A stretch of DNA of 57,216 nt, taken from positions 1 through 57,216 of IMG/VR virus record IMGVR_UViG_3300009194_000013. The stretch is one strand, 5' to 3'. The notes under the pieces are model-generated. The model saw only the letters and a list, made by a program, of their open reading frames with translations. It ran no database searches and had not been told where the DNA came from. Each line of letters begins with the position of its first letter. The first letter of the stretch is position 1. The DNA comes from a virus. Taxonomy: Duplodnaviria > Caudoviricetes. The position numbers and the translations under genes are program-made. This document shows positions 34,214 through 51,135 of this stretch, piece after piece.

Positions 34214-34468
34214 TCAGTTGAAGAAGTTGTCTAATGAGAAGTCAAAGCTGAAGGGCTCGGCGATCTTGTCAGGAGCGCCATAGAGCAAGTAGTTCGCAAG
34301 CCTGGCCTTGATTGTCCAAAAGTCTGCTGCACTCCACATACCGCTGTCGTCTGACTGCATGCCGCGCTCGTCGCATTGCTGTACGTTGAGCGTCTTTGAG
34401 ATCAACTCAGCGTCAAGGGTTACGCCGAGAGTCGAATTGATCTCACCCAGCGTAACCCTGCGCATCAC
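34214..34468 (-). CDS. Hypothetical protein, paralog of the upstream gene; FSFDF tail
   Basis: Alignable by eye to the N-terminal domain of 34465-34863. Confidence 0.6.
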   Translation of the reverse strand: MMRRVTLGEINSTLGVTLDAELISKTLNVQQCDERGMQSDDSGMWSAADFWTIKARLANYLLYGAPDKIAEPFSFDFSLDNFFN

Positions 34469-34863
34469 TCGAAGCTGAAGCCGGTGTCGTCAGCAGCAGG
34501 GGCTTCGTCACCAAAGCTGAATCCAGTGTCTTCGGCAACAGGGGTGACATCGCCGAATGTGAAGCCGGTGTCTTGAGCAGCAGGGGCGTCATCACCAAAG
34601 CTGAAAGGTGCGGCGTCACCGGAAGCAGTCGTATCGCCTTTTGGCTTGGCAGGCTTCTTGTCGGCCACAGCTTTGGACGTGCGGCGCGAGTTGATGTGTG
34701 CGATCAGCTTGTCGCAGATGTCACCAAATTGGCTTTCAGACCAGTAGACGGCTCGCTTTTCCTTTTCGACTGGTTCGACCTTCAGTTCACCTTCGACGAA
34801 GGCGCCTGTGATGGGCACCCCGAGACGTTCTTGAATGGTCTTGATGTTGATCTTGTCGGTCAT
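34465..34863 (-). CDS. Hypothetical protein with acidic FxFG-repeat tail
   Basis: FSFGD, FTFGD, FSFGD, FSFE. Confidence 0.75.
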   Translation of the reverse strand: MTDKINIKTIQERLGVPITGAFVEGELKVEPVEKEKRAVYWSESQFGDICDKLIAHINSRRTSKAVADKKPAKPKGDTTASGDAAPFSFGDDAPAAQDTGFTFGDVTPVAEDTGFSFGDEAPAADDTGFSFE

Positions 34864-34914
34864 TGTCTTCGTTCCTATGGTTAGGCGTTGGTGGGAGACG
34901 TTAGTGTATGCGCC

Positions 34915-35352
34915 TTAGTAGCTCTTGCCGCCTTCGGCAATGCGATTTTCGATCTTGTGATCGGCGCGTTGGGCGTTGAAGGCCAGCTTGTCTGCAATGG
35001 CGTCGCCGATGTCCATATTCATGGCGCCAGCCAAGTCAAAGATGCGAATCAACGCATCGGCCAGTTCGACTTCCAACATCTTGCGCTGCGGCAACTTGTC
35101 GTCCATCAAACCCTTGCGATGACCTTCCATACCTTCGCTGATCTCGCTGTGTGTCAAACACAGCTTTTGGGCGACCAGGGCACCGCCGAGCAGCTTTTGC
35201 AATGGGTCTTTCGGATCGTTGATGACCTCGCAAAGATCGAGCCCTGTTGCATGGTGAGTCCACCAGCCCGCTTCTTTGCTTGCGCCGTGACAGATTTGCT
35301 GAAGAAGATTCCCGCAATGGGATACTTGAAGTTCATTTACAGGGGCGTTCAT
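34915..35352 (-). CDS. MazG-like NTP pyrophosphohydrolase
   Basis: LTHSEISEGMEG.RK, EVELADALIRIFD, K..FN..R.DH. Confidence 0.85.
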   Translation of the reverse strand: MNAPVNELQVSHCGNLLQQICHGASKEAGWWTHHATGLDLCEVINDPKDPLQKLLGGALVAQKLCLTHSEISEGMEGHRKGLMDDKLPQRKMLEVELADALIRIFDLAGAMNMDIGDAIADKLAFNAQRADHKIENRIAEGGKSY

Positions 35353-35597
35353 TTGGATTTCTCCGTTGGTTGAAAAAGGGTTGCGTTAGGGCCGCATGGC
35401 ATCTCGGGCTCGCGCATGTCAATGCAGTAGCCGCGTGTACGCGATTTGGCGATAACCAGTTCGTTGCATCGCAGGACGCGCACAGTGGCGTCACCCGACT
35501 TGAGGTCTTTCTGAATGCATTTGCTGCACGCCAGGCATTGCTTACGCTCTTGGAACCAAAGCGCAGTGCGCGCATCGAGTTTGTCGTCTCGTTTCAT
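35349..35597 (-). CDS. Cys-rich hypothetical protein
   Basis: CLAC...C..MR....CGP.A.LF; ATGA overlaps. Confidence 0.6.
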   Translation of the reverse strand: MKRDDKLDARTALWFQERKQCLACSKCIQKDLKSGDATVRVLRCNELVIAKSRTRGYCIDMREPEMPCGPNATLFQPTEKSK

Positions 35598-35890
35598 ATT
35601 GGAAATTCCCGGTCAATGGCTTCGACTGTTGTGAGGACAAGAACGACCTCGCCAAGCATCCGCATGCGATCAATCTCGCGCTGCTGCCCACTGCTGAGCA
35701 CGCCATCCTTACCCGCCTTGGTCTCAACCCAGCAGTTACGGCTGTAGAAGGGTGAGCCGTATGCGAAGCGCACGCGGATGTCAGGGCAGTTGCGGCGTCC
35801 AACATACTTGACGAACACAAGCTCGCCGCCGAGCGCTTGAACCCGCTGCTTCAAGTAGTCCTTTACTTTGCCTTCCGGCGTGCGGCTCAT
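35594..35890 (-). CDS. VRR-NUC nuclease
   Basis: PEGKVK, PD...WVETKA, LS..Q. Confidence 0.85.
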   Translation of the reverse strand: MSRTPEGKVKDYLKQRVQALGGELVFVKYVGRRNCPDIRVRFAYGSPFYSRNCWVETKAGKDGVLSSGQQREIDRMRMLGEVVLVLTTVEAIDREFPI

Positions 35891-35891
35891 G

Positions 35892-36122
35892 TTACACCTT
35901 ACCTTTACTGGCCAGGTCGATGTTGGTGTAGAAGTATTCGCCGATCTTCATTTGAGCGAGGTCGAACGACACCATGCCGATAGCCAGCATTGGGGCGAAA
36001 GGTCGAGTACCTACGCTCTCAATGTCAATCATCGCGTGCGGGTACTTCAGCGGGGCGCTACCGAAGCTGAACGAAAAGTCGTTAGCTGCGCTGCCGCCGA
36101 AGTCGAATGAAAAGTCGCTCAT
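35892..36122 (-). pseudogene. Truncated DEDD-type 3'-5' exonuclease
   Basis: HAMIDIESVG...AIGMVSFD...FYTNIDL followed by a stop; later exo motifs missing. Confidence 0.6.
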
Positions 36123-36123
36123 G

Positions 36124-36603
36124 TCAGCTACCAAAGAAGTCGTTGACGAAAGCTGCGGTTTCATACGCGGCTTCGATTGGTGCTACTGACTCGATGACTG
36201 GTTCCGCAAAGAAGTTTTCAGGTGAAACGACTTCTTTGATTTCGACAGCAAGACCCTTGATCTTCAGCGGCTCAGACTTCCAAGGCTGAATGACACCATC
36301 GTCGTCGGTCATGACGGTAAAGCCTTCTGGTGGCACGATACCCGACCATTCAAAATCTTCCCACACGCCAATGTTGTAGTGACTCGTGTGAGCTTCGAGC
36401 AGCGCCTCTTCGATGGTGGCGCAATCGCGATACCACTTGTCGCCGTCCCAATATGCAAAAGTATCGGAATCATCCGGGCTAGGGCGTTCAAGGCGACGTT
36501 TGTAAACACCCTTGAAGCCGGGCTTCTCGTAGCCTGGGAAGTAATCGGTGGCAACCAGTTGAATTTCGGCGAGTGTGTCGGGGGTCACGGTGAGTCCTTT
36601 CAT
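36124..36603 (-). CDS. Hypothetical protein
   Basis: KP...GVYKR...AYWDG..W...WSGI module. Confidence 0.65.
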   Translation of the reverse strand: MKGLTVTPDTLAEIQLVATDYFPGYEKPGFKGVYKRRLERPSPDDSDTFAYWDGDKWYRDCATIEEALLEAHTSHYNIGVWEDFEWSGIVPPEGFTVMTDDDGVIQPWKSEPLKIKGLAVEIKEVVSPENFFAEPVIESVAPIEAAYETAAFVNDFFGS

Positions 36604-36647
36604 GATGTGTGTATCTTCGTTTGTATGCTTTGTTTATGCCATTGGGG

Positions 36648-38528
36648 TTAACCCCATGAAAACTCAGTTTGCGTTGCCTTTTTGGCACGAGGTTTGCGAA
36701 CCTTTGGCGGCGGTGCAGTGTGGCCAATCGCAATTAGCATGTCGTTGGCGATCTGGATGTAGCGCTCGTAGTCGATGTCAGATGGGAACTCATCTGGCAA
36801 CGTCATGAGCGGTCTACAGCCATCGCTGTTGGCTACCTTGTTGTTGGTGCCATGCACGTTGGCCTTGCGGTAGTACATCGGAGCGGGGTTCTGCTTGGTG
36901 TAAATCCAGCGCACGGTCTTGCCGACAAACTGGCCATGCCAGGTAGCGCCGCCCGTCACGCGCTGAACGCTGACGAAGTGTCGAATGTCGCGGCACATGC
37001 GTATGAACAACTCAATATCAACGCCGTGCTCAAGGTACGCGCAGACCGCCTGGACACAAACTTGATTGGTTGGGCTTGGCCAGGACGATGCGACTGGTTC
37101 GGGCTCGGCAAAGTCACCCTTGAGCTTTACGCCGCCCTTTTCTTTGATGGCGATGTATGAATTGACACTGGCCGAGTACAGAGCCTTGTAGCGCGTCTCT
37201 TCAGTCTCAAAGCCGGTGTCCACTTCCCACCAACGAATGATGTCAATCAAATCGTCGTAAGCATCCTTGCGGCACTTGATTACGATGCCGTCTGTATTGC
37301 CGGATACGACCTTGATGAAGTCGTTGGACTCAATCTGCTCAATCAACATGAGCAATGCCAACTGGCCGGTGAGTGTCACCTGAATCATCAAGTCTGGTGA
37401 GTAGAGCGCTGAGTAGACGTTTCCGAACTTGCCGAAGGAGCCGTTGAGCACAATCTTCAGCGTGTCGGCCAGGGTCTTGTTACCCATACGCTTGGCTTCA
37501 ATGCGCGTATTGAAAATGTCGGTGTAAACGCTCAGGAAATGCCGCCCCAAATGCTGCGGGAACAACAAGGTCTTGATGATGATCGCTGGGTAGTAGCTGG
37601 CGACATCGCGGTCGACTAAAATCCAATCGTCGTCAGCTAAGTGCGCGACAGCCTTCTCGGTTGAATGTAACCCGCCGATACCCAGCTTGTACGTCGAATC
37701 GCCGATAGTGACTTTGCGGCCTTCAATAGTCTTTGGAATCTCAACCTTGCCGCTGTGCTGGACATAGAAGGTCGCGTCACACACGTCCTTGAATATGGCT
37801 TGCAACTCAGGCGTCTTGAAGCTAAGCCACTTTGGCGGCGTGTACTTGAACGACTTGATGTCGATGTCAGGCTTGCCGATTTTCCAGCCGATGATTCGAC
37901 TGATGCGCTCCTTCAGCACAGCTTCGGCAATCTGAGCATCTGACTTGCTGCGTAGATCAATTCCGTACTCGCGGCTCATGCGCTCGCGGATTTCAATCTG
38001 TGCTTTGAACTTCCTGGCCGCGTCTTCGGTTAAGTCGCAGTCGTTACCGCAATAGAGCGACAAGTCGTCTCGCTCGCTCGGTGAGATGCTGGCGTCAGGC
38101 TCAATGGGCAAGTCTTGCAGCGTCTTGCTGTGCATCTTGCCGCCATACGTCTTGAGCGAGTTGATGCCCGGCATGATCTCAATCAAGTCGATGTGATCGT
38201 ATTGAGGAATCTTGAAGCCGTAATTGCGCTCAGCATGCCAGGGGCTCAGGCCTGTCAAGATCAACTCATCGCTCAGCCGCTTCAGCGCTTCGTTGCTAAA
38301 GCCTTGGAGCGCTGCGCCAATCATCACCATGTCGTACTTGTGGCCGTTGAAGGTGAACAAGCGACACGCTTTGAGCGTTGCGTCGACCATCGCTCGATTC
38401 AGCGCATGTCCAGGGTACATGCGGAACTCGCGCCGAGCCCCTGTGTCCATGCGCTTCAACTTGATGAGAAAGAAGTCGCGATAACACTCCGTATCGAGCG
38501 ATGCGTCAGGCTTTGGTGCGACGATCAC
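36648..38528 (-). CDS. DNA polymerase, family B, with N-terminal 3'-5' exonuclease
   Basis: DTE, FNGHKYD, YC.ND; DVASYYP, KIVLNGSFGKFG, NTDG. Confidence 0.92.
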   Translation of the reverse strand: MIVAPKPDASLDTECYRDFFLIKLKRMDTGARREFRMYPGHALNRAMVDATLKACRLFTFNGHKYDMVMIGAALQGFSNEALKRLSDELILTGLSPWHAERNYGFKIPQYDHIDLIEIMPGINSLKTYGGKMHSKTLQDLPIEPDASISPSERDDLSLYCGNDCDLTEDAARKFKAQIEIRERMSREYGIDLRSKSDAQIAEAVLKERISRIIGWKIGKPDIDIKSFKYTPPKWLSFKTPELQAIFKDVCDATFYVQHSGKVEIPKTIEGRKVTIGDSTYKLGIGGLHSTEKAVAHLADDDWILVDRDVASYYPAIIIKTLLFPQHLGRHFLSVYTDIFNTRIEAKRMGNKTLADTLKIVLNGSFGKFGNVYSALYSPDLMIQVTLTGQLALLMLIEQIESNDFIKVVSGNTDGIVIKCRKDAYDDLIDIIRWWEVDTGFETEETRYKALYSASVNSYIAIKEKGGVKLKGDFAEPEPVASSWPSPTNQVCVQAVCAYLEHGVDIELFIRMCRDIRHFVSVQRVTGGATWHGQFVGKTVRWIYTKQNPAPMYYRKANVHGTNNKVANSDGCRPLMTLPDEFPSDIDYERYIQIANDMLIAIGHTAPPPKVRKPRAKKATQTEFSWG

Positions 38529-38716
38529 TTGCGACCTTTCGTGACCTCTTTGCGCTGCGTGTCTTCAATGCATGGGCGCACGCACTCTTTATGCACGCGA
38601 TGCTCGCTGCCGTCGACTTCTTGCACTGTTGCGAAGATGAAGCCGCCACCTCGCTTGTAAACAAGGCGGTTGAGACAGTGCCAGCATAGCGACGGGCCGT
38701 GATCTTTTTTCCACAT
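38525..38716 (-). CDS. Small zinc-binding protein
   Basis: CWHC...HKEC. Confidence 0.6.
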   Translation of the reverse strand: MWKKDHGPSLCWHCLNRLVYKRGGGFIFATVQEVDGSEHRVHKECVRPCIEDTQRKEVTKGRK

Positions 38717-38809
38717 AGGTGTTTCCGTTGTTGCTCTTTGGTGAGAGGGTTTTCAGGTGCAGGGAGCGAACATCGAAGTCGTTGTGCAATCCGTATTCAC
38801 CCTCTCGCC

Positions 38810-38828
38810 AAAAAGCCCCCGAAGGGGC
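38810..38828 (-). terminator. Terminator GCCCC-TTCG-GGGGC-TTTTT
   Basis: GC stem, UUCG loop, T-tract. Confidence 0.65.
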
Positions 38829-38975
38829 GCGTGACTAAGCGAAATCACTTACCACGCATGCGCTGAATGCGAAGCCACACGCCGCGCACCTGCCAGCCGA
38901 TCCAACAGCCGACAAGAAGCGCGAGCATCATAGCGAGGACAACATCACCTCGCCCTGCAAAAATGCCGACCGGCA

Positions 38976-39389
38976 TCATTTGGCGATCTTCGGAAGTGGA
39001 TGCGGCACCTTCGATGTAGGTGCGCACTTGCCGTCTTCAGATGCGTAAGGCGACTCCTTGAAGTCTGCATCTGTGCGGCACCCAACGGCGTTGCTGACGG
39101 TGCTGCACTTGAGCTTGGCGACTTTGCCGCCGTCTGCATTGAGCACATCAATGGTGGCCCAGCCGTCGCCTTGCGGGCATGTAGGTTCTTGTGTGCTGTC
39201 GCCACGGGATACGATCTTCAGATCGCCACCGCTTGGCATTGACGAGCGAAACACTTGTGCGTTGAACTCGGCGTTTTCGCGTGCTTGTTGACGGGCTGTT
39301 TCCAGGGTGTTGAATGAGACGTCGGCCTCACCGCACGCTGTCAAAGCGATGACGGCAACAATGGACAAGGCAAGGAACTTCGTTTTCAT
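38976..39389 (-). CDS. Lipoprotein
   Basis: MKTK + hydrophobic stretch + LTAC lipobox. Confidence 0.75.
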   Translation of the reverse strand: MKTKFLALSIVAVIALTACGEADVSFNTLETARQQARENAEFNAQVFRSSMPSGGDLKIVSRGDSTQEPTCPQGDGWATIDVLNADGGKVAKLKCSTVSNAVGCRTDADFKESPYASEDGKCAPTSKVPHPLPKIAK

Positions 39390-39795: not shown

Positions 39796-39805
39796 GTTTG
39801 ATCCT

Positions 39806-41111: not shown

Positions 41112-41286
41112 TCAGTCAGTTGATTGGCGGACAAACGCCGCCTCGTGCATTGGATTGCCTGTGACATCCACGCAGAGACCTGCGTCGTATGAAGAGTCGT
41201 AGAAAGCGTCCAGTTCGGACGCCTCCATTTCAAACAACGACTCGCTCTCTGCGTGGTATATCAAACGACGCGTTGAAGCTGGATCA
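41112..41286 (-). CDS. Small acidic ORF lacking a clear start; possible +1 extension of SSB
   Basis: RRLIYHAESESLFE...GLCVDVTG fills the gap between two genes. Confidence 0.4.
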
Positions 41287-41997
41287 GGAAAACGAAAAAG
41301 GTGCGTCCTCCTTTGCAGCACCGCTACCAAAGAAGCCGTCGTCACCTGTAGCCGCAGCAGATGTGTCGGCACCGAAGCCGAAGCCGTCGTCAGCGGATGC
41401 CGATGCGCCGCCGTCTTCAGCGTAGTCGAAGTCAGCTTCATCGAAGCCTGCGCCGCCGCTGAATGCTTCGCCGTCGTCTTCAAACTGGATGGCCAGGAGC
41501 TTGGCGTTGATGCGCTTGCCGTAGCCGTTTTCCTGAGCCCAAATGTCCAGCTTCACGTTGACGTAGCAACCGGAGTAGGGGGCCTTGACACGGTAGTTGT
41601 CGATCTTCTTGCCGTCGATGAAGCCGTCACCATTCTTGTCGATGTAGACGACCTTGCCTTCGTACTTGGCTTTGCCCACCACAGCAGGGCGCGACTTGTT
41701 GCTTGCGCTCAGGTAGTAGTTGCCGGGGAAGCCGTCGTACTCTGATTTGGTGTTGCCGTCATGCAGACACAGATCGCCTTTGGCGCGGAGCGACTTGAGC
41801 ATGTCCTGGGCTTTGGCGCCCCACTTCTCATTGGCTACGGTTGTCATGGTGTTGACAATCGCCTGCATGATGAGGGCTTGAGCCTTCGGGTCGATCAAGA
41901 ACGACGCATCGCAGCGAGGCTCGCCGTTGCCGTTGAATGGCTTTGGTTCCCAAATGTTGGGGAAGGCCAGGCGCACGCGTTTGAGATTGAGTTCCAT
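41284..41997 (-). CDS. ssDNA-binding protein (DUF2815/T7 gp2.5-like)
   Basis: VRLAFP, YSGCYVN, L.AIQF..DGEAF, acidic aromatic tail. Confidence 0.88.
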   Translation of the reverse strand: MELNLKRVRLAFPNIWEPKPFNGNGEPRCDASFLIDPKAQALIMQAIVNTMTTVANEKWGAKAQDMLKSLRAKGDLCLHDGNTKSEYDGFPGNYYLSASNKSRPAVVGKAKYEGKVVYIDKNGDGFIDGKKIDNYRVKAPYSGCYVNVKLDIWAQENGYGKRINAKLLAIQFEDDGEAFSGGAGFDEADFDYAEDGGASASADDGFGFGADTSAAATGDDGFFGSGAAKEDAPFSFS

Positions 41998-42027: not shown

Positions 42028-43419
42028 TCAGTCGAAGTCAAAAGACGATGTGAGGTCGATAGTGATAGCGGGTCGGGGGTCGATGTCTTCGACGACCTTT
42101 GTACCCGATGGGGGAGCGCGGTGAATGATGGTTTGCAGCTTGCCCCAGGCTGCTTTGCTCAGCTTCGGCTTCTTGCCTTTGGTCAGCTTCTCAGCTTGCG
42201 CTGGCGATATGAGACTTCGCTTGGTGTATTCGATTTGCGGCAAGCCTGCTTCTTGAAGCAAGAACTCAGCGTCAAACTCGCTACCCCATTTGCGGTCACC
42301 CTCGTCACCAGCCACCAGCTTGTAGCCATCCACCGGCCTATTTGCTTCGAGTTCGGCGCGAGTGCGGGCGTCGATGAAGTCGCAATACTTGCGAAGCATC
42401 GGAAGCATGCGCTTCATCTTCCCCAGCTCTTGAACAGATGGGCGCCTGGTTTCCTGGGCATCCATCTTCTCGAAACTCTCGAATGCGACTTCGAGAGCCA
42501 TGCGCTCAGCTTCATAGCAGGGATACGCCTTGCAGAACTGACAGACGTCCGGGCTCGGGTGAGCCTTTGCCATCGGGTCGCGTGTGTTTTCAGCTTGCTC
42601 GCTGATCCACGCTACCCACTTCAAATGTTCTTCCACGGATACGACGTACTCGTCGATGTGGTCGAGCGTAGGTTGCACGATGATGTAGCGAATGCGCTTT
42701 AACTTGTGCAGTTGATCCTGCAACTCGTTTCGAGCAGCTTCCGCGTACATCACCAATTGCGTGTTGGGCTTAAATGACGGCCCACCAGCAAAGAGTGCTT
42801 CCATTTGAATGTCCTTCGGTGCGGTCGAAAAATGCAAGCCTTCCAGCTTGTACTTCGCGTAGACCTTCTTGAATCCGCACTTCAGGTCGATGATCGTCAG
42901 TTCGTCAGGCGGGAACAGCACCACTGAATCACTGGTGCCCTTTGCATCAGGCTCGCCCGTGATGTGCTCAATGCTCAGTCGCGCCTCGACCATGAGCGTC
43001 CCACCGGCTTTGACCATCTCGCGCACAAACTCGATGTAAGTCTGCGCCCAGTCGATCATGTCTTGCGTAACGACGATGCCGCCGTCAGAAGACTCACCAC
43101 CAAGCCGGTAGGTGACTGTTCCGTCGTCATGAACCAAAGCGTTCTTGTTCAAGGCCATTGACAACAGAACGTCGTCGTCAGCCTTCAAACACTTTTCGCT
43201 CAGGTCATGACAGATCGTCCCCGTGTTCGCTGCCTCGCCGCTGGTATCGGGCAAGCCCTCTTCCATGCGAGGTGACACATGACAAATAGTCCAACGGCCT
43301 GAACCCGAAGCGCCGAGCTTCGCATGCACTTTCGCTTCGACAATCGGGATCGTCCGTTTGGGCGCCATATCGAAGAAGCTATCGAGCATGCTTGACTCGG
43401 GCTCAGGTTTGCCGCTCAT
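42028..43419 (-). CDS. DUF2800/Cas4-like PD-(D/E)xK nuclease
   Basis: HAKLGAS...RW..C, GTSD, IIDLK.G, QLVMYA, CQFC, SPAQAEK. Confidence 0.88.
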   Translation of the reverse strand: MSGKPEPESSMLDSFFDMAPKRTIPIVEAKVHAKLGASGSGRWTICHVSPRMEEGLPDTSGEAANTGTICHDLSEKCLKADDDVLLSMALNKNALVHDDGTVTYRLGGESSDGGIVVTQDMIDWAQTYIEFVREMVKAGGTLMVEARLSIEHITGEPDAKGTSDSVVLFPPDELTIIDLKCGFKKVYAKYKLEGLHFSTAPKDIQMEALFAGGPSFKPNTQLVMYAEAARNELQDQLHKLKRIRYIIVQPTLDHIDEYVVSVEEHLKWVAWISEQAENTRDPMAKAHPSPDVCQFCKAYPCYEAERMALEVAFESFEKMDAQETRRPSVQELGKMKRMLPMLRKYCDFIDARTRAELEANRPVDGYKLVAGDEGDRKWGSEFDAEFLLQEAGLPQIEYTKRSLISPAQAEKLTKGKKPKLSKAAWGKLQTIIHRAPPSGTKVVEDIDPRPAITIDLTSSFDFD

Positions 43420-43421
43420 GC

Positions 43422-44012
43422 TCAGGCCAGGGCTTTGTCAGCGGCTGCACACAGGTCAGCCCACAGGTCGGGACGCGTTTGCACGTCACCGAAGCCCTTC
43501 AGAGCGTGCTCGCCCATCAGCTTGCCGAAGGCGCCCTGGTCTTTCGTCGCAAAGGCCATCAGCTTGGCTTTGACATCGTCCAGGGTGTACGCCTTGTCGG
43601 ATGCAGGGGCAGCGGGCATGTCGGCACCCAGGTACTGCATCAGTTCAGTCCACTTGTCGGATGCCTTTTCAACGTCGTTCATGTTCTTGAAGCCGAACTT
43701 CAGCATGGCGCCGTTGAAAGCGGTTGCGTCTGTCTTGTGGTAGGCACCCAGGGCGCTCTTGACTTCATCAAACGTGTACGTTTGGGTCGAACTTTGGGTT
43801 GCCACGGAAGCCGTACTGGACTGCTTCGTGTCTGACGCAGCGGCCACCTCCACCGAGGCAGTAGACGGCGTATGGGCAGTCTGAGCAGACGGTTTTGCGG
43901 TCGCTGACGTGGAGGGTGCGTTTCCCACGACCAAACCTTCGAGCTTTTGCAAGGAAGGCACGGCGGCTGCGAGTGCTGCCAGGGAAACGAAGTTGAGCGT
44001 AATGGATTGCAT
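43422..44012 (-). CDS. Hypothetical protein with duplicated helical domain
   Basis: TYTFDEVK.../AYTLDDVK... internal repeat; first gene of the replication operon. Confidence 0.7.
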   Translation of the reverse strand: MQSITLNFVSLAALAAAVPSLQKLEGLVVGNAPSTSATAKPSAQTAHTPSTASVEVAAASDTKQSSTASVATQSSTQTYTFDEVKSALGAYHKTDATAFNGAMLKFGFKNMNDVEKASDKWTELMQYLGADMPAAPASDKAYTLDDVKAKLMAFATKDQGAFGKLMGEHALKGFGDVQTRPDLWADLCAAADKALA

Positions 44013-44068: not shown

Positions 44069-44153
44069 AAATGTAGCAGACGTATCAGTCGTTACGCAAG
44101 TGCGAAATGCTGGTATAAACCCCTATTGCTTCGCAACTGCGAAACGTCACAAT
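44069..44153. promoter_or_regulatory. Divergent promoters with two operators
   Basis: - strand TTGCGT-18-TACATT; + strand TTGCTT-16-CACAAT; operators at 44093-44106 and 44130-44143. Confidence 0.6.
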
Positions 44154-44183
44154 CTCAATCACGCAAACCAACCGGAGAAACCA

Positions 44184-44834
44184 ATGCGTCTTTGTAATGT
44201 CATCAAGTCTTGGTTTAAACCCAAGCCACCTGCCGCCGCAGCGAGTCGTATCGACGCTGAAGATAAGATGAGGGGGATGCCGTATGTCAAGGAGTTACAC
44301 GGCAGTAACAAAGAACTCATAGACCGTCGAGTTTTCCACGCTGCTTTGTTCAACTCATCAAGGTCGTATGAACTGCACGACTATCAGAAGGCTGCACTTG
44401 ACGCGCTTGAGCGCAAGTCGCCTGATGAACTGCCAACCAAGCGCAGCCCTCCCTCCCCTGAGACCCTGGCCTGGCTTGAGCGAAAGTCACCTGATGAGCG
44501 CCCGTCAATCACGCTGTCGCCGTCCCCCGAGACGCTGAACACCTGGCTTGAGCGCCAATCAGATGGACAATCCAAAGCGATCCCTTTCAAGGCGCCCGCT
44601 CGCAAAGGTCATAGCGACAGCTTGCTCAAGAGCTACACCGACGATGTGATGGCCACGCAAATGTTGATGCAGACCTCCTACACGACCACTACGAGTCTTG
44701 CCGATACGCCTGCAACCGGCATCGAGTCGGGCAATGGCGGTGACTTTGGCGGGGGTGGTGCTTCGGGAAGTTGGGACTCATCATCCAGTGATTTTTCTTC
44801 AAGCGACTCGTCGTCGTGCTCATCAACTGACTGA
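44184..44834 (+). CDS. Hypothetical protein with internal repeat and G/S-rich tail
   Basis: GGAG RBS; LERKSPDE...PSPETL repeated. Confidence 0.65.
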   Translation: MRLCNVIKSWFKPKPPAAAASRIDAEDKMRGMPYVKELHGSNKELIDRRVFHAALFNSSRSYELHDYQKAALDALERKSPDELPTKRSPPSPETLAWLERKSPDERPSITLSPSPETLNTWLERQSDGQSKAIPFKAPARKGHSDSLLKSYTDDVMATQMLMQTSYTTTTSLADTPATGIESGNGGDFGGGGASGSWDSSSSDFSSSDSSSCSSTD

Positions 44835-44859: not shown

Positions 44860-45054
44860 ATGCAGATCATTCAAACCATCGTCGCGGCTTTCAAGCCGAT
44901 GAGTATCGAGAGCATGCTGCAAAAGCAACTCGAAGAGGCTGAGCGACAACTCGTCGAAACGATTCATCATCTTGAGTCGTATGAACACAACGAAATGCTC
45001 TTGCGAGCCCGCATTGAGCGCATCAAAGCACAACAACTGAAGAAGGAACTGTGA
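44860..45054 (+). CDS. Hypothetical coiled-coil protein
   Basis: AAGGAG RBS. Confidence 0.6.
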   Translation: MQIIQTIVAAFKPMSIESMLQKQLEEAERQLVETIHHLESYEHNEMLLRARIERIKAQQLKKEL

Positions 45055-45476
45055 TGAAACGAGTAATCGTCTATGAAGTAAGCCAAGCACACCATGACGT
45101 CGTTGGCTCGCACGTTGAAATGTACGACCGCGATCCGATTGGCGAGACTAAAGTAACTGCCTTCTCGCTGCCAGCCGGTGGGCCGCCACTGTTCGCGTTC
45201 GGAGACAAGATTCGGCGGTTCAGCCTGCCTGTACAAGAAGTCAGATACGAAGGCAAAACTGAGTATCTGGCCATTGGCCCTAAGTTGCATCGAATGCTCG
45301 ACATCGCTTTGCGCGGTGAATACGAGGATCGCGAAGTTGAGTTGAAAAGTATTTTTCAGCGCCGCGCCATCCTTGCTGAGCAGGAAAACAATCGCTTGCT
45401 GCAATGCTTCGAGCGCTTCCACGCAACCAATCGCTTCAAGCGGGCATGGTTAGCCTTCTTCGGGAGACTGCCATGA
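45054..45476 (+). CDS. Hypothetical protein
   Basis: Coupled to neighbours. Confidence 0.6.
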   Translation: MKRVIVYEVSQAHHDVVGSHVEMYDRDPIGETKVTAFSLPAGGPPLFAFGDKIRRFSLPVQEVRYEGKTEYLAIGPKLHRMLDIALRGEYEDREVELKSIFQRRAILAEQENNRLLQCFERFHATNRFKRAWLAFFGRLP

Positions 45477-47703: not shown

Positions 47704-47714
47704 AAGGAAACGAC

Positions 47715-47939
47715 ATGAACATCTACGCATTTATCATCGGTTGGCTCGTCGGCTTTGTTTGCTTGCGCATACTCGACCGTCTCAAGCGCAAGCCGGATGA
47801 ACCCAAAGACGGTTGTCACGATCCACTCATGCAATGCGACGACCCAATGGCGTGCTACGGAGGCAAAGTAAAGCGCTGCAAGAACTCAAACGTCGTTGAC
47901 GGCAGTGAGTTGTTATTCAAGGACGACGGCAAGTCATGA
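47715..47939 (+). CDS. Small membrane-anchored protein
   Basis: GAAAGGA RBS; N-terminal TM segment. Confidence 0.6.
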   Translation: MNIYAFIIGWLVGFVCLRILDRLKRKPDEPKDGCHDPLMQCDDPMACYGGKVKRCKNSNVVDGSELLFKDDGKS

Positions 47940-48154
47940 GCTACATCCTTCTCAACAAGCGCAACCGTCCTGCCGGTGGCCATCGACTTATCCGCGAGAC
48001 GGTAGGCGAGAGTGCTGCGATGTTCGCTCGCTTTTGGGACTTACATGACAGCGACAACGCACCTCACCGCTGGCACGACATCAACAAGAAGCCGCAAGAA
48101 GTCGGTCTGTGTGAACAAACGACTCTCTTCCAATCGGACGACCTCACGTCGTAA
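47936..48154 (+). CDS. Hypothetical protein
   Basis: ATGA overlap. Confidence 0.55.
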   Translation: MSYILLNKRNRPAGGHRLIRETVGESAAMFARFWDLHDSDNAPHRWHDINKKPQEVGLCEQTTLFQSDDLTS

Positions 48155-48272
48155 GTTCTCATAGCCCATACAGCTTCTCGTATGGGCACCTCTGTTATCA
48201 AAACACCCCCTGGTTGCGGCTCGGTGCGCAACCCTTATAGTCACTTACTTCGCACTTGCTAAACTGCCGTCC

Positions 48273-48542
48273 ATGAACACCGAACCCATCACCCCCCTCT
48301 TAGCCTGGCTGCGTAAGGCTACCCCTGAGCAAAAAGAGCGAGCCGCGACTCTCGCAGGCACCAAGGTCAACTACCTCTTCCAGCTTGCCTCAGAGGGCGG
48401 CAACCGGGGTAAGAACATCTCGGCAGCACTGGCCTTCCGCATTGAAGACGCCATGCGTGTCGTAGAACAAGAGTCGAAGGGGTCGCTCAAAGCAGTCAGT
48501 GCCCGCGAGCTTGCGTCCATGTGGACAGTCGCGGGGTTCTAA
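48273..48542 (+). CDS. Cro-like HTH regulator
   Basis: AATLAGTKVNYLFQLA...SAALAFRIE; operator at 48249-48262 just upstream. Confidence 0.7.
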   Translation: MNTEPITPLLAWLRKATPEQKERAATLAGTKVNYLFQLASEGGNRGKNISAALAFRIEDAMRVVEQESKGSLKAVSARELASMWTVAGF

Positions 48543-48546
48543 CGTC

Positions 48547-51135
48547 ATGAATCAACCAGCATCACTCCACGCGCTCCCACGCCTTCTGAAAGACTGCAAC
48601 ACATGGCTTGTGTGGCGGCTTACCCAAATTGAGGGGGAAAAGAAGCCCAAGAAAATCCCCTACTACATCAGCGGTGCGCCGCGCTCCAAAGAGATACCTC
48701 AGGGTAGCCCTGAAGACTTGAGCGCATTGACCTCACTGCAAAACGCCATCGACACAGTACCCAGGCGCAACTACAGCGGTGTTGGCTTGGCCATGATCGC
48801 TGCGAACCAGTTGGTAGCATTGGACTTTGACGATTGCGTGACAGATGGCGTCATATTGCCCGCCGTGCGCGAGCTTATCCAAGGGACATACAGCGAGTTT
48901 AGTCCGAGCGGCACTGGTATACGAGCCTTCTTCAAAGGCGCATGCCGTGACCGCAAAGATCACAACGAGAAGAAGCGCTTTGAGTTCGGCATTGAGTTCT
49001 TCCACGCTGCCGGATACGTCACGGTGACCGGCAACAGCACCCCTGATTGCTCGTTCTTCGGATGGGACATCGCCGAGATGCCTGAGAGCGTGCATGTGCT
49101 TTACAAGCAGCGCTTCGGTGCCCCTGCCTCAATGGTGGCCTATGACAGTGCGCAATCGGGCGGGATGCTGGGCGCTGTATCTGACGATGACTGGTTCGCC
49201 ACCTCGCAAGAGATCAAGCAGAAGATCGGCATGAGCATTGAGAAGGCTCGCGTGCTGCTTGAGCACCTGAGTGCTGATTGCGGCTATCAAGAGTGGTTGC
49301 AGACCGGCCAATCGCTGCATCACGAGTTCGACGGCAGCGATGAGGCGTTGGAGTTGTGGAAGGAATGGTCTAAGACATCGAACGAGAAGTACCCTGGCAA
49401 CAAGGCAGTTGAAGCAAAGTGGAACTCGTTCGGCTCTTACACAGGCCCCTCGATCACAGGCGCGTATCTGCTGCGTCACGCAAAGGACGCCAAGACGCTT
49501 GAGAAGTATGAGGCGGTTGCCGAGTGGAAAGAGCAGATCAAAGAGTGTGAAGAGGAAATGCAGATTCGCGAGAAGCTGTGCCCTCAGATCGCCAAAGACA
49601 CGCGCCTGCAAGACATTGATCGCGAGTCACTTGCTCAGACGCTGCTTGAGAAGTTCAAGAAGTTCGGCACGAAACTCACGATTGCCTTTTGCCGCAAGCT
49701 CATCACGCCGCCCGATAAGCTGACACCCACCGTCAAGCAAAAGAGACCGCTCACCGAGTTTGGCAACTGCGACCGCATGCTGGACAAGTACGGTGACTCG
49801 CTGATGTTCGTTCCTGAGACGGACGCCTGGTACTGCTGGACAGGCGTGTATTGGAAGCGCAGCACCAAGACCGAGATTGAGTTCTATGCCAAAGAGACGA
49901 TCAGAGGTTTGGTACATGAGGCGGGTGAGCATGAGCAAGACATCGCTGAGTTCTACGACTTCTGCAAGATCAGCCAGCAAGCAAAGATGGTGCGCAACGT
50001 CGTTGACTTGGCCAGTAGTGATCCTCGCGTTTGCGTGCCTGCTTGTGAGTTGGACAAACACAAGGGTTTGCTGTGCGTGCAGAACGGGGTTGTCAATCTG
50101 CGCACAGGTGAGTTGATGCAGCCTGACCCTGCGTACCGGATGACCAGGGCATGCGCGTGCGATTACAACCCAAAAGCACAAGCGCCGCTTTTCAGGAAAG
50201 TGCTCAGCGATGTGTTCAATGATGACCGTGAGATGTGTGAGTTCTTCATGCGTCTGATTGGTTACGCGGCGGTTGGCGATCCGGTAGAAGACGTGATGGT
50301 CATCCCCTACGGCAACGGCTCCAACGGCAAGAGCACGGTCTTCGGAACGATCCGCAAAGTGTTAGGCACATACGCTAAGTCTGCGGCGCCTGAAACTTTT
50401 GTGAGCGATGGACGCAGCAATTCAGGCAGCGGACCGCGTGAGGACATCGTGAGACTACAAGGCGCACGCTTTGTCTACATCGCTGAGCCTGATGAGGGCT
50501 CTGAGCTACGAGAAGGTGCTATCAAGTCAATGACAGGTGGCGATGCGATCCCTGCACGCGCAATGTATGCCCGCATGTCGATTGAGGTAGAGCCTTCATG
50601 GGTGCCGTTCATGCCTACCAACCACAAGCCGGTTGTCAAGGGTAACGACAATGGTATTTGGCGCCGCCTGGTGCTGCTTCCATTCACCCGTAACTTTGAG
50701 AACGACCCACTGATTACGAAGGATGAAGATTTGGCGCAAAAGCTCGAAGCAGAAGCCGAGGGGGTATTAGCACTTGTCGTGTTGGCGGCGGGGGCCTACC
50801 TGGCAAGAGGCTTGTTGCTGCCTGAGTCTGTCAAGAGGGCACGAGACGAGTACCGGGCGCAAATGGACTTGTTGTCCGAATGGTTGGACGAGAGATGCGA
50901 GATGCAGTCCGAGTATCGCGAGTCGATGAAATCGCTGTGGGCGTCTTGGGAAACCTTCGCAAAACAGAGGGGTGTTTTGCAATATGTGAAGTCAAGCATT
51001 GCCCTTGGCAAGCGCTTGGAGCAGCGTTTCCCGCCGTTCAAGGACGCGTCTGGTCAAAGGTGGCGTTTAGGATTGAAGCTCAAGTCGATTGATGTCAATG
51101 CTGACGATTGGGCTGACGGCTTTTTTGAATCGTGA
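48547..51135 (+). CDS. Primase (AEP-type + PriCT-2-like) fused to D5/P4-type SF3 helicase
   Basis: LDFD, SPSGTG, GYVTVTG; W.EWS..S..KY; GNGSNGKST, IKSMTGGD, TNHKP, WRR. Confidence 0.93.
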   Translation: MNQPASLHALPRLLKDCNTWLVWRLTQIEGEKKPKKIPYYISGAPRSKEIPQGSPEDLSALTSLQNAIDTVPRRNYSGVGLAMIAANQLVALDFDDCVTDGVILPAVRELIQGTYSEFSPSGTGIRAFFKGACRDRKDHNEKKRFEFGIEFFHAAGYVTVTGNSTPDCSFFGWDIAEMPESVHVLYKQRFGAPASMVAYDSAQSGGMLGAVSDDDWFATSQEIKQKIGMSIEKARVLLEHLSADCGYQEWLQTGQSLHHEFDGSDEALELWKEWSKTSNEKYPGNKAVEAKWNSFGSYTGPSITGAYLLRHAKDAKTLEKYEAVAEWKEQIKECEEEMQIREKLCPQIAKDTRLQDIDRESLAQTLLEKFKKFGTKLTIAFCRKLITPPDKLTPTVKQKRPLTEFGNCDRMLDKYGDSLMFVPETDAWYCWTGVYWKRSTKTEIEFYAKETIRGLVHEAGEHEQDIAEFYDFCKISQQAKMVRNVVDLASSDPRVCVPACELDKHKGLLCVQNGVVNLRTGELMQPDPAYRMTRACACDYNPKAQAPLFRKVLSDVFNDDREMCEFFMRLIGYAAVGDPVEDVMVIPYGNGSNGKSTVFGTIRKVLGTYAKSAAPETFVSDGRSNSGSGPREDIVRLQGARFVYIAEPDEGSELREGAIKSMTGGDAIPARAMYARMSIEVEPSWVPFMPTNHKPVVKGNDNGIWRRLVLLPFTRNFENDPLITKDEDLAQKLEAEAEGVLALVVLAAGAYLARGLLLPESVKRARDEYRAQMDLLSEWLDERCEMQSEYRESMKSLWASWETFAKQRGVLQYVKSSIALGKRLEQRFPPFKDASGQRWRLGLKLKSIDVNADDWADGFFES

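What the first reader, a model, noticed from the sequence alone, without database searches (positions are those of the whole stretch)
34214..51135. Shared acidic FxF/FF motif on the termini of most replication proteins: candidate phage assembly-tag or condensate system
Seen: 34214 gene ends EPFSFDFSLDNFFN; 34465 gene has FSFGD/FTFGD/FSFGD/FSFE; the exonuclease remnant starts MSDFSFDFGGSAANDFSFSFG; 36124 gene ends NDFFGS; DNA polymerase ends TEFSWG; SSB ends DDGFGFG..DDGFFG..EDAPFSFS; the Cas4-like nuclease has DSFFD near its start and ends SSFDFD; the primase-helicase ends DDWADGFFES; TerS starts TIDEFFAD. Virion proteins do not visibly share it. Known: acidic aromatic tails of SSBs (T7 gp2.5, E. 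coli SSB) dock on partner proteins, and FxFG repeats drive multivalent interactions in nucleoporins. Inference: unrelated proteins carry one tag that either binds a common hub or lets them co-condense into a replication compartment. This is my best candidate for an undescribed system.
Basis: partly seen in the sequence, partly recalled or inferred. Interest (0 to 1): 0.85.

Follow-up and report, generated by a model that had tools for sequence, protein, structure and literature searches.

The report
Shared docking tails on phage replication proteins
Most replication proteins of this phage end in the same short phenylalanine-rich tail as its DNA-coating protein, and related phages carry their own version of the tail, which suggests that each phage lineage has a private tag for assembling its DNA-copying machinery.

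Summary
FF/FxF lies in the last six residues of 7 of 75 called proteins (one a doubtful ORF): 0 of 26 structural, 7 of 49 others. Composition gives 0.95, and 0 of 2000 shuffles reach 7.

The window is a complete Casjensviridae-like phage with a DUF2800 nuclease, T7 gp2.5-type SSB, PolB and D5-type primase-helicase module.

In related phages and prophages the same proteins carry acidic tails with a lineage-specific tip (DLF, EEL, DLV, LI, LA, FF). Tips match within a genome far more often than between genomes: two independent sets of 31 and 37 clusters, with no permutation reaching the observed value. The untagged SNF2 helicase serves as control.

Closely related Xenorhabdus prophages switch both tips together.

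Here the tip is multiplied into arrays: SSB x3, a conserved "tag-array" protein x4 and the exonuclease N-terminus x2.

Best reading: these are short docking motifs for one shared phage-encoded receptor, extending the known T7 gp2.5/gp4 tail principle. The receptor is not identified. The condensate idea is untested, but FG-repeat SSB tails in relatives keep it open.

This is a new variant of a known kind.

The parts
41284..41997 (-). T7 gp2.5/Enc34-type SSB (DUF2815). OB core at residues 1 to about 180. Disordered tail with three tag copies (GFGFG, GFFG, terminal PFSFS). Archetype carrier of the tag.
   Evidence: Pfam PF10991 E 5e-32. PDB 5odj E 7e-11. AF2 pLDDT 88-98 in the core and 47-65 in the tail. 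Sequence.
42028..43419 (-). DUF2800 (Cas4/PD-(D/E)XK-like) nuclease. C-terminal SSFDFD and N-terminal LDSFFD.
   Evidence: Pfam PF10926 E 3e-59. Tags. Its tip co-varies with the SSB tip in relatives.
48499..51135 (+). Primase-helicase (PriCT_2 + D5_N + DUF5906) ending DDWADGFFES.
   Evidence: Pfam hits. Tail. Orthologue tips co-vary with the SSB and DUF2800 tips. The nearest relative L011 has DADDFFDE near its end.
36648..38528 (-). Family-B-like DNA polymerase. C-terminal extension PPPKVRKPRAKKATQTEFSWG: a basic linker followed by an F-x-W-G tip.
   Evidence: Weak PolB matches in Pfam and to PDB Pol II. 46% identical to AchV4 and ACF1 polymerases. Tagged C-terminal extensions in ACF1, JS26, AH2, L018, L019, L023 and L058. 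Tips co-vary.
36124..36603 (-). p159: small phage domain (residues about 16-91) plus a disordered tail with NFFAE and a terminal VNDFFGS.
   Evidence: The Atlas structure rows match a family of viral proteins of about 73 aa of unknown function.
35892..36122 (-). Truncated DEDDh 3'-5' exonuclease (76 aa; orthologues are 184-197 aa). N-terminal double tag MSDFSFDFGG..DFSFSFG.
   Evidence: Pfam PF16473 covers profile positions 2-46 of 177 only. Five of 6 full-length orthologues carry an N-terminal FF tag.
34465..34863 (-). p132, the 'tag-array' protein. Folded N-terminal domain of about 64 aa, a basic linker, then four 14-aa repeats each holding F-[ST]-F-[GE].
   Evidence: Sequence. 42-nt tandem repeats, 73-88% alike. 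AF2 pLDDT about 80 for residues 1-64 and below 50 after that. Homologues keep 3-4 repeats of their own lineage's motif. The family has 351 hits at E<=1e-3.
34214..34468 (-). p84: small protein ending EPFSFDFSLDNFFN (FxFxF plus L-D-N-F-F).
   Evidence: No family match.
394..852 (+). Small terminase subunit. I-D-E-F-F at residues 4-8 if the ATG at 394 is the start. The C-terminus is acidic with no hydrophobic tip.
   Evidence: PHROG 57/141. Motif. JS26 and AH2 TerS carry their lineage's C-terminal tip. The start is uncertain.
43422..44012 (-). p196: conserved small protein upstream of the nuclease, with two internal repeats of about 55 aa. Untagged here, tagged in AchV4, ACF1, AH2 and JS26. A weak lead for the tag receptor.
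   Evidence: PHROG 18562. Tails in relatives. In Xenorhabdus prophages its family separates by tip class better than any other 3-versus-4 split (19 columns, rank 1 of 35). No function found.
32722..34179 (-). SNF2-type helicase of the same module, untagged. Used as the internal negative control.
   Evidence: Pfam SNF2-rel_dom. Tail ...LKLAMIRRG. No tip co-variation with SSB or DUF2800 (1813 of 5000 and 4927 of 5000 permutations reach the observed value).

Best explanation
The F-rich termini are short linear docking motifs.

In phages and prophages that carry the DUF2800 nuclease and gp2.5-type SSB replication module, the SSB's disordered acidic tail ends in a short hydrophobic tip. Other replisome, recombination and packaging proteins of the same genome carry the same tip at a free terminus. 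In different lineages these are the nuclease, primase-helicase, polymerase, exonuclease, a tag-array protein, small proteins and TerS.

All these tails therefore compete for, or are recruited by, one shared receptor surface that co-evolves with them. That receptor is most likely phage-encoded. This phage uses FF / F-x-F-(G) as its tip and has multiplied it (SSB x3, p132 x4, exonuclease x2, p84 x2-3), which gives multivalent binding.

Shown here: the motif, its enrichment, its conservation, its within-genome co-variation and its concerted switching.

Inferred: that the tails bind a common receptor and so order recruitment and hand-off at SSB-coated DNA, as the T7 gp2.5 and gp4 tails do on T7 polymerase.

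Not identified: the receptor. My candidates, in order, are:
1. The SSB core's concave beta-sheet, where tails dock in trans in crystals.
2. The p196-family protein.
3. The polymerase or primase-helicase.
For: 1. Enrichment in the window: 7 of 75 C-termini against 0.95 expected, with 0 of 2000 draws reaching 7.

2. The SSB is gp2.5/Enc34-type. T7 gp2.5 ends EDGDF and gp4A ends NDTDF, while gp5 is untagged. Passages read describe the acidic gp4 tails binding basic patches of gp5 and the gp2.5 tails competing for gp5/trx. A passage read says PDB 6P7E holds a DTDF peptide that mimics the gp4 tail.

3. Named relatives share per-genome tips:
- ACF1: NSDLF, GNDLF, SADLF.
- JS26: ETEL, GEDL, EQEL, EYEL, DEEL.
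- AH2: ..DL or ..GL.
A crude tag rule flags 5 of 9 replication and packaging proteins against 1 of 17 others in JS26, and 5 of 11 against 1 of 14 in AH2.

4. Tip co-variation, by permutation over clusters at 60% identity:
- DUF2800-SSB: 31 clusters, 0 of 20000.
- Independent metagenome set: 37 clusters, 0 of 5000.
- Primase-helicase with SSB 26 of 5000, and with DUF2800 0 of 5000.
- Polymerase with SSB 23 of 5000, and with DUF2800 0 of 5000.
- SNF2 controls are not significant.

5. Concerted switch in one host genus. Five Xenorhabdus prophages have an ..LI tip on both proteins and 4 have ..[MIV]F-x on both. SSB identity is 88% within a class and 85% between classes.

6. The tag type follows the genome in the accessory proteins too:
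- p132 homologues carry DDLF x3 where the nuclease ends DLFQE (L010).
- They carry DDPF/DDFFG x4 where the SSB ends DGFFA (L011).
- They carry GFDFGG x4 in P0002 and P0003.
- P0003 and the SSB P0008 are each listed with a longest contig of 12379 bp, possibly the same contig, and both end GFFN.
- Exonuclease orthologues carry N-terminal FF tags in 5 of 6.

7. Crystal precedent for a receptor on the SSB core. The Enc34 paper says the C-termini lie in the concave seven-stranded sheet of neighbouring molecules, burying 842 A2, and that the same is seen in both DUF2815 structures and in gp2.5 (passages read).
Against: - No binding was shown, and no receptor pocket was identified.
- In the window the aromatic pair is followed by 1-2 more residues (S, D, N, E, G, GS, ES). 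The T7 rule of a terminal Phe carboxylate is therefore not met.
- The polymerase tail is basic.
- N-terminal instances are not enriched on their own, and the TerS start is uncertain.
- The structural-versus-other contrast in the window alone is weak (Fisher p = 0.087).
- The permutation tests remove near-duplicates but not deeper phylogenetic non-independence.
- Many nucleases lack the terminal tip and share only the upstream D-F-D-D part of the SSB tail, for example L112, L115 and L118.
- Identical last two residues occur in only 8 of 31 and 8 of 37 clusters.
- The p196 lead rests on 7 sequences. Its best possible rank is 1 of 35, and the gene lies next to the nuclease gene.
Confidence: 0.6

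Rival explanations
1. Sticker-and-spacer condensate. The F-x-F-G and FF motifs are cohesive stickers, like FG-nucleoporin repeats. The SSB (multivalent tail plus ssDNA binding) is the scaffold of a replication condensate, and tagged proteins partition into it through Phe-Phe contacts without any folded receptor. This is not exclusive of docking.
For: - Multivalency is a conserved feature of this clade. Eleven of the 120 best SSB relatives, the window's own included, have 3-4 separate FF/FxF sites in the tail. Some have non-acidic Ala/Pro spacers between GGF[SGA]FG units (P0012, P0014, P0050, P0053).
- Twenty-three of 125 p132-family members have at least 3 motif sites.
- Scaffold and clients carry the same motif, as a homotypic model expects.
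- The search listing includes papers on E. coli SSB phase separation through its disordered linker. I saw titles and abstract starts only.
Against: - Most lineages of the family have a single, strongly acidic tip (DDLV, DEEL, DLF). Such tips would repel rather than cohere, yet they show the same co-variation.
- Three or four repeats are far fewer than in nucleoporin FG domains (recalled).
- Nothing here measures condensation.
- The spacers in the window's own tails are acidic.
Confidence: 0.15
2. Host hub. The tails dock on a conserved host protein, either the beta sliding clamp or the partners of host SSB, so that phage enzymes hijack host machinery.
For: - ACF1-type tips (x-x-D-L-F-COOH) resemble the last three residues of the clamp-binding consensus QL[SD]LF. 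Clamp-binding motifs often sit at C-termini, Pol II included (review passages read).
- The T4 polymerase and sigma factor gp55 share SLDFL[FY] near their C-termini. p84 ends SLDNFFN.
- Some SSB relatives end DDDIPF, KIPF or NLPF, and the NP1 helicase ends DLDDDIPF. These resemble the bacterial SSB tip as I recall it.
Against: - None of the window's terminal tags matches Q-phi-x-[LM]-[FL].
- No clamp gene was found: no Pfam hit, and no significant similarity to the NP1 clamp (best tblastn E 0.017, inside an unrelated gene at 3631-5310).
- Tips differ between phages of related hosts, and they switch in concert between closely related prophages of one genus, Xenorhabdus. If one invariant host pocket accepted both classes, the two proteins would have no reason to match each other.
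Confidence: 0.12
3. Independent cis-acting tails. Each DNA-binding enzyme has its own acidic, aromatic, DNA-mimicking tail that folds back on its own DNA site as an autoinhibitor. The similarity arises because the same physics is selected in each protein.
For: - All tagged proteins act on DNA.
- The Enc34 paper reports that removing the SSB tail lets the SSB bind dsDNA as well as ssDNA (passage read).
- The title of a reference cited there says the gp2.5 tail and ssDNA compete for one surface (reference list seen).
Against: - This does not explain why the exact tip residues match within a genome and differ between genomes (LI, LV, LA, LT, LF, FF, EL).
- It does not explain the concerted switch.
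- It does not explain tag arrays on p132, a small protein with a domain of about 64 aa.
Confidence: 0.08
4. Common degradation tag. A shared terminal degron lets a host or phage protease remove the replication proteins late in infection.
For: The motifs sit at free termini and occur on early proteins only. No direct evidence from any call.
Against: - The SSB precedent (T7, Enc34) points to docking.
- Acidic tails do not resemble the C-terminal degrons I recall.
- Arrays and N-terminal copies are not expected of a degron.
- Lineage-specific switching within one host genus argues against a host protease.
Confidence: 0.03

Closest known systems
Bacteriophage T7 replisome tails: gp2.5 SSB and gp4 primase-helicase acidic C-terminal tails that dock on gp5 polymerase
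   Same: - The SSB fold family is the same: Enc34/DUF2815 is gp2.5-type (abstract read).
- The tails are disordered and acidic.
- The SSB and the primase-helicase share one tip: T7 has EDGDF and NDTDF, the window has APFSFS and DGFFES.
- In T7 the tails compete for one receptor (passages read).
   Different: - Here at least 6 proteins carry the tip, not two. They include a nuclease, an exonuclease, small proteins and, in several lineages, the polymerase itself and TerS.
- The aromatic pair is not the very last residue.
- The tip is multiplied into arrays.
- The primase-helicase is D5/PriCT-type rather than gp4-type, and the polymerase is PolB-like (PolA in other lineages).
- The receptor is unknown.
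- The lineage-specific tip code with concerted switching was in none of the papers I listed or read.
Bacterial SSB C-terminal tip (SSB-Ct) as an interaction hub
   Same: An acidic disordered tail with a hydrophobic tip recruits partners. Abstracts seen describe a nine-residue tip and at least 17 partners. Some family members end DDDIPF, KIPF or NLPF.
   Different: The topology is reversed. In bacteria one tail meets many pockets. Here many proteins carry the same tail, which implies one pocket or very few. The window's tip is FF/FxF, not I-P-F.
T4 sliding-clamp-binding C-terminal motifs (gp43, gp55) and bacterial clamp-binding motifs
   Same: Several unrelated proteins share one short hydrophobic motif at or near the C-terminus for one hub. 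T4 gp43 ends SLDFLFG and gp55 ends SLDFLYEAND. The window has SLDNFFN, VNDFFGS, LDSFFD and IDEFFAD.
   Different: No clamp or clamp loader was found in the window or in the related loci. The canonical Q-phi-x-[LM]-[FL] motif is absent from the tags. The SSB itself carries the tag, which I do not recall for clamp motifs.
FG-nucleoporin repeats and SSB linker-driven phase separation
   Same: F-x-F-G and G-F-x-F-G units are separated by low-complexity spacers and repeated 3-4 times in the SSB tails and tag-array proteins.
   Different: There are few repeats, and the spacers in the window are acidic. No evidence of condensation exists. Single-tip lineages show the same co-variation.

Membership tests
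T7-type replisome tail docking (gp2.5/gp4 tails on polymerase) | SSB of the gp2.5/Enc34 OB-fold type | tested here: met
   Pfam PF10991 E 5e-32. PDB 5odj E 7e-11. The AF2 core is confident.
T7-type replisome tail docking (gp2.5/gp4 tails on polymerase) | Disordered acidic C-terminal tail on the SSB, and the same kind of tail on the primase-helicase | tested here: met
   SSB tail pLDDT 47-65. In the last 30 residues the SSB has D+E 5 and K+R 1, and the primase-helicase has D+E 6 and K+R 4. The tips are PFSFS and GFFES. T7 comparison.
T7-type replisome tail docking (gp2.5/gp4 tails on polymerase) | The aromatic residue is the C-terminal residue (Phe-COOH) | tested here: not met
   The window's tails end S, D, N, E, GS, ES and G after the aromatic pair. 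Many relatives do end in FF, LF or LV.
T7-type replisome tail docking (gp2.5/gp4 tails on polymerase) | The tails bind basic patches of the DNA polymerase | not testable with these tools
   No binding assay is available. The one complex prediction gave no verdict (see Tried and rejected).
Bacterial beta-clamp-binding motif (CBM) | Q-phi-x-[L/M]-[F/L] or Q-phi-x-[L/M]-x-[F/L] (review passage read) | tested here: not met
   The regex scan finds no CBM in any terminal tag. The only matches are internal, inside folded parts of the polymerase and primase-helicase.
Phage-encoded sliding-clamp system (T4-like) | A clamp (and loader) gene in the genome | tested here: not met
   No clamp family in the 30 non-structural proteins scanned against Pfam. 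The NP1 'putative replicative clamp' has no significant similarity in the window or in loci L002-L089. A divergent clamp of unknown sequence family is not excluded.
Bacterial SSB-Ct mimicry | An acidic tail ending in the I/L-P-F tip (motif recalled) | tested here: not met
   No window protein ends in [IL]PF. Three of the 120 best SSB relatives do.
FG-repeat cohesive domains / condensate scaffold | Multiple F-x-F-G or G-F-x-F-G units in a disordered region | tested here: met
   p132 has 4 units, the SSB 3 and the exonuclease N-terminus 2. The regions have low pLDDT.
FG-repeat cohesive domains / condensate scaffold | Phase separation or selective partitioning | not testable with these tools
   Needs in vitro droplet assays or live-cell imaging.

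The most novel reading that the evidence does not exclude
In this clade the tip has evolved from a single docking motif into an FG-repeat system. The SSB tail (3-4 GF-x-FG units, in some relatives with Ala/Pro spacers) and a dedicated DNA-bound tag-array protein (p132 family) would form a selective, nucleoporin-like phase on ssDNA. The nuclease, primase-helicase, polymerase, exonuclease and terminase would be admitted by carrying the same sticker. That would be a lineage-specific 'password' for a membrane-less phage replication compartment, one that also excludes proteins of co-infecting relatives with another tip.
Probability: 0.15. Interest if true: 0.9.

Novelty: new variant of a known kind. 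Interest (0 to 1): 0.62.

Why it matters
If the tails are a shared docking code, this large and widespread replication module has a simple, portable rule for replisome assembly. The module is found in Casjensviridae-like phages and in many prophages of Proteobacteria.

- A few terminal residues would decide who joins the machine. That would help explain how polymerases can be swapped between lineages. The passage read reports PolA/PolB swapping in Casjensviridae: a newcomer would only need the local tail.
- The lineage-specific tips with concerted switching offer a natural, directly testable case of co-evolution between a short motif and its receptor. They also suggest a possible incompatibility barrier between co-infecting relatives.
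- Practically, the tips give peptides for pulling down the unknown receptor and tags for recruiting cargo to phage replication sites.
- The F-x-F-G arrays make a bacterial-virus test case for FG-type multivalency.

Tried and rejected
1. Complex prediction: polymerase + SSB core (1-185) + SSB tail (186-237) as partner. Score 0.09 and 0.04 against a mark of 0.32, so no verdict. The controls were not run. It counts neither for nor against binding.

2. AF2 of the full SSB to see cis-docking of the tip. The last block has pLDDT 65 against 47 for the linker. That is too weak to interpret, and no contacts are available.

3. Search for a clamp. No clamp family turned up in three Pfam scans of 30 non-structural proteins. 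The NP1 'putative replicative clamp' gave nothing by tblastn or phmmer.

4. DNA-repeat artefact or gene conversion between tags. Rejected: only p132's internal 42-nt repeats are DNA repeats.

5. Function of the tag-bearing small proteins.
- p84: no family, and no similarity to p132.
- p159 and p196: Atlas leads only, unnamed viral clusters.
- p132 N-domain: Foldseek against PDB gave 0 matches at E<=0.001. The best, at E 0.4-1.1, are MerR-type, RacA, GlnR and excisionase winged-helix DNA-binding domains. This is a lead only.

6. Close relatives at the DNA level in the phage collection: none.

7. Rfam and tRNA scans of the window: nothing. A DUF2815-associated ncRNA mentioned in a preprint (passage read) was not found at gathering threshold.

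8. Receptor hunt by class-separating columns in Xenorhabdus prophages. Only the p196 family stands out. With n = 7 this is a lead, not a finding. Families sampled 2 against 2 were dropped as uninformative.

9. Supplements of the papers are closed. Supplementary Fig. S1 of the Enc34 paper (tail contacts in crystals) and the supplementary figures of the DRT4 preprint were not seen.

11. Limits of the counts. My gene list is longest-ORF calls curated by hand, with no gene finder. For loci, orthologues are best blastp hits among ORFs of at least 50 aa. Over-extended starts do not affect C-termini. L104's exonuclease ORF (446 aa, over-extended) was left out of the 5-of-6 count.

Full report
**What the window is.** The window is a complete virus record with direct terminal repeats. 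It has no close DNA relative in the phage collection.

The gene order and the protein matches place it with Casjensviridae-like siphophages. The polymerase is 46% identical to those of Achromobacter phage AchV4 and Acidovorax phage ACF1. The order primase-helicase / regulator / small protein / DUF2800 nuclease / SSB / polymerase / ... / SNF2 helicase is the same as in AchV4, AH2 and JS26.

The module proteins are:
- a DUF2800 PD-(D/E)XK-type nuclease (E 3e-59);
- an Enc34/DUF2815 SSB (E 5e-32);
- a D5_N/PriCT_2 primase-helicase;
- an SNF2 helicase (all);
- a PolB-like polymerase.

The SSB family has a solved structure and is a T7 gp2.5-type OB fold with an unstructured acidic C-terminal segment (abstract and passages read; PDB match).

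Among my 75 ORF calls, FF or FxF lies within the last six residues of 7 proteins. These are p84, p132, p159, the SSB, the nuclease, the primase-helicase and one doubtful ORF at 45051-45476. None of the 26 structural and lysis proteins has it. Composition-preserving draws give 0.95 on average and never reach 7 (0 of 2000).

The more specific words are also enriched and terminal:
- F.F[GDES]: 21 sites against 6.2 expected; 9 terminal against 0.89 expected; 0 of 1000 shuffles.
- [LIVM][DN].FF: 5 sites against 0.5 expected. Four are terminal, and they are exactly p84-C, p159-C, nuclease-N and TerS-N.

Results against the observation:
- N-terminal FF/FxF alone is not enriched.
- Fisher's test for other versus structural proteins gives only p = 0.087.
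- The polymerase's extension is basic and ends EFSWG.
- The TerS start is uncertain.

The tags are not a DNA repeat copied between genes. Only p132's four units are a 42-nt tandem repeat. Between genes the similarity is what the shared amino acids force, and Ser is coded by both AGC and TCN.

**The same thing in relatives, with other letters.** In the named relatives the orthologous proteins also end in acidic tails, but the tip differs by phage:
- ACF1 has NSDLF, GNDLF and SADLF on the nuclease, SSB and polymerase.
- JS26 has ETEL, GEDL, EQEL, EYEL and DEEL on the primase-helicase, small protein, SSB, polymerase and TerS.
- AH2 has ..DL or ..GL.
- AchV4 has ..LF, ..LL or ..LA.

A crude rule (hydrophobic last residue, at least 2 acidic residues in the last six, at most 1 basic in the last twelve) flags 5 of 9 replication and packaging proteins against 1 of 17 others in JS26. 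In AH2 it flags 5 of 11 against 1 of 14.

I then took 80 IMG/VR loci around polymerase homologues. I compared the last residues of orthologues within and between genomes, after collapsing loci at 60% identity.

For the nuclease against the SSB (31 clusters), no permutation of 20000 reached the observed similarity for the last 1, 2, 3 or 4 residues. For the last three residues:
- primase-helicase against SSB: 26 of 5000;
- primase-helicase against nuclease: 0 of 5000;
- polymerase against SSB: 23 of 5000;
- polymerase against nuclease: 0 of 5000;
- SNF2 helicase (untagged) against SSB: 1813 of 5000;
- SNF2 helicase against nuclease: 4927 of 5000.

An independent set of 61 metagenome loci (37 clusters) repeated the nuclease-SSB result, with 0 of 5000. 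Matched pairs there include DLA/DLA, ALT/ALT, DLI/ALI, EFI/EFV, DLV/DLV and DFF/DFFS.

Caveats:
- Clustering removes near-duplicates, not deep shared ancestry.
- Only 8 of 31 clusters share the last residue, and only 8 of 37 share the last two.
- One clade of nucleases shares only the upstream D-F-D-D-[VL]-T part of the SSB tail.

**A natural experiment.** The genome collection returned 42 loci, 13 of them from Xenorhabdus, and these gave the cleanest case.
- Five prophages have ..ADLI on the nuclease and ..[AE][AE]LI on the SSB (..ELIS in one).
- Four have ..[DG][MI]F[SAV] on the nuclease and ..D[VI]F[NS] on the SSB.

The SSBs are 88% identical within a class and 85% identical between classes. 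The nucleases are 83% and 79% identical. The two tips have therefore switched together, recently, inside one host genus. A single invariant host pocket that accepted both classes would give the two proteins no reason to match. This favours a co-evolving, phage-encoded partner.

I looked for that partner by counting alignment columns that separate the two classes:
- The small protein encoded just upstream of the nuclease (the family of the window's p196) has 19 such columns, 12 of them in its last 50 or so columns. That is the best of all 35 possible 3-versus-4 splits.
- PolA has 4 (8 of 126 splits do as well).
- The SSB has 2, both in the tip.
- The nuclease has 4, two of them in the tip.

With seven sequences this is only a lead.

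**The F-type clade and the arrays.** The nearest relatives keep F-type tips. L011 has SSB ..DGFFA, primase-helicase ..DADDFFDE.., a small ORF upstream of the SNF2 gene ending ..EDFFG, and a p132 homologue ending ..DDFFG. L090 has nuclease ..ADFF and SSB ..GDFFS.

Of the 120 best SSB relatives, the window's own included:
- 52 have FF/FxF in the last five residues;
- 11 have 3-4 separate sites in the tail;
- some read GGF[SGA]FG with Ala/Pro spacers (P0012, P0014, P0050, P0053);
- three end in [IL]PF.

p132 belongs to a widespread family (351 proteins at E<=1e-3). It has an N-terminal domain of about 64 aa (AF2 pLDDT about 80, with only weak winged-helix-like fold matches), a basic linker and a tail. 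Among 125 members of at most 240 aa, 27 have an F-type tip, 54 have an acidic L-type tip, and 23 have at least three motif sites.

The repeat unit follows the genome's tip:
- DDLF x3 in L010, whose nuclease ends DLFQE;
- DDPF/DDFFG x4 in L011;
- GFDFGG x4 in P0002 and P0003.

P0003 and the SSB P0008 are each listed with a longest contig of 12379 bp, possibly the same contig, and both end GFFN.

Full-length exonuclease orthologues (184-197 aa) carry an N-terminal FF tag in 5 of 6. The window's copy is cut to 76 aa but keeps a double tag.

**Mechanism.** The closest established system is T7. gp2.5 ends EDGDF and gp4A ends NDTDF, while gp5 has no such tail. The passages I read describe the acidic gp4 tails binding two basic patches of gp5/thioredoxin, and the gp2.5 tails competing for gp5/trx. 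They also mention a DTDF peptide in PDB 6P7E that mimics the gp4 tail.

The present family uses a gp2.5-type SSB and extends the principle to many more proteins, with a tip that differs by lineage. I therefore read the tails as short docking motifs for one shared receptor, used for recruitment, hand-off and competition at SSB-covered DNA.

The receptor is unknown. One candidate has crystal precedent. In Enc34 ORF6, in both DUF2815 structures and in gp2.5, the C-terminus of one molecule lies in the concave sheet of its neighbour, burying 842 A2 (passages read). Proteins that mimic the SSB tail could then bind the SSB core. The p196 family and the polymerase or primase-helicase are the alternatives.

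**Rivals.**
- A condensate built on F-F stickers fits the arrays. It does not fit the single, highly acidic tips of most lineages.
- A host hub (clamp or SSB partners) fits some tips: DLF, SLDNFF compared with T4's SLDFLF, and the IPF endings. It fails the canonical clamp motif. No clamp gene was found. It is hard to square with the Xenorhabdus switch.
- Purely cis-acting DNA-mimic tails do not explain the matching of tips within genomes.
- A degron has no support.

**Novelty.** My searches listed no paper describing shared, lineage-specific tips across this module, or FG-type arrays in phage SSBs. I saw listings only, apart from the papers in which I read passages. The library does not hold most subscription journals, and supplements were closed.

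Because the T7 principle is well known, I rate this a new variant of a known kind. It is of real but not extreme interest: the co-varying 'tip code', its concerted switching and the dedicated tag-array protein are new, testable features.

Noticed in passing
window 35892-36122 (-), with 35594-35890 (-) downstream: The 3'-5' exonuclease is cut to 76 aa. Only profile positions 2-46 of 177 are matched, and orthologues are 184-197 aa. A VRR-NUC-like nuclease gene follows directly; relatives have it downstream of the polymerase. The remnant keeps its N-terminal double tag, so it may now act only as a tag carrier.
   Followed up: partly
window 34465-34863 (-); proteins P0002, P0003, P0124-P0272: p132 belongs to a large family of small phage proteins of unknown function (351 hits at E<=1e-3). 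The family has a conserved domain of about 64 aa, possibly winged-helix-like, followed by an acidic tail or an array of lineage-specific tips. In some hits the domain sits at the C-terminus of proteins of 370-800 aa.
   Followed up: partly
window 43422-44012 (-); L191:4916-5695 and its orthologues: p196 has two internal repeats of about 55 aa after a low-complexity Ser/Thr/Ala stretch. In Xenorhabdus prophages the C-terminal domain of its family separates by tip class (rank 1 of 35 splits). It carries the tag itself in AchV4, ACF1, AH2 and JS26, but not here.
   Followed up: partly
L006 (Pseudomonas phage NP1) 9871-11646; proteins P0010, P0012, P0014; L116: The NP1 helicase ends DLDDDIPF. Some DUF2815 SSBs end DDDIPF, KIPF, NLPF or DDIPF. 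These resemble the bacterial SSB tip (recalled), which suggests that some lineages aim the same tail position at host SSB partners.
   Followed up: no
window 44100-44834 (+); L090:857-1438 (-): An ORF of 244 aa ends in a Gly/Ser/Asp-rich stretch: GGDFGGGGASGSWDSSSSDFSSSDSSSCSSTD. An ORF in relative L090 ends GGDFGGGGASESFRND. This may be another low-complexity tail with D-F-G units. There is no family match.
   Followed up: no
window 38976-39389 (-): An ORF of 137 aa inside the replication block begins like a lipoprotein signal peptide (MKTKFLALSIVAVIALTACGE...). It has no family match.
   Followed up: no
L009 (Serratia phage JS26) 17237-17608: One small protein in the head-gene region of JS26 ends DANDDGEL, the same tip type as its replication proteins. 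This is a possible link between the tag and capsid assembly or packaging, alongside the tagged TerS.
   Followed up: no
window 36648-38528 (-), last 21 residues: The polymerase's C-terminal extension is Pro/Lys/Arg-rich (PPPKVRKPRAKK) before the EFSWG tip, unlike the acidic linkers of all the other tags. In most related loci the polymerase ends without any extension (..ILxDxG..).
   Followed up: partly
window 1-57216: There are no tRNA genes and no Rfam family at gathering threshold. The ncRNA reported upstream of some DUF2815 SSB genes (preprint passage) was not detected. Only 30 nt separate the nuclease and SSB genes.
   Followed up: yes
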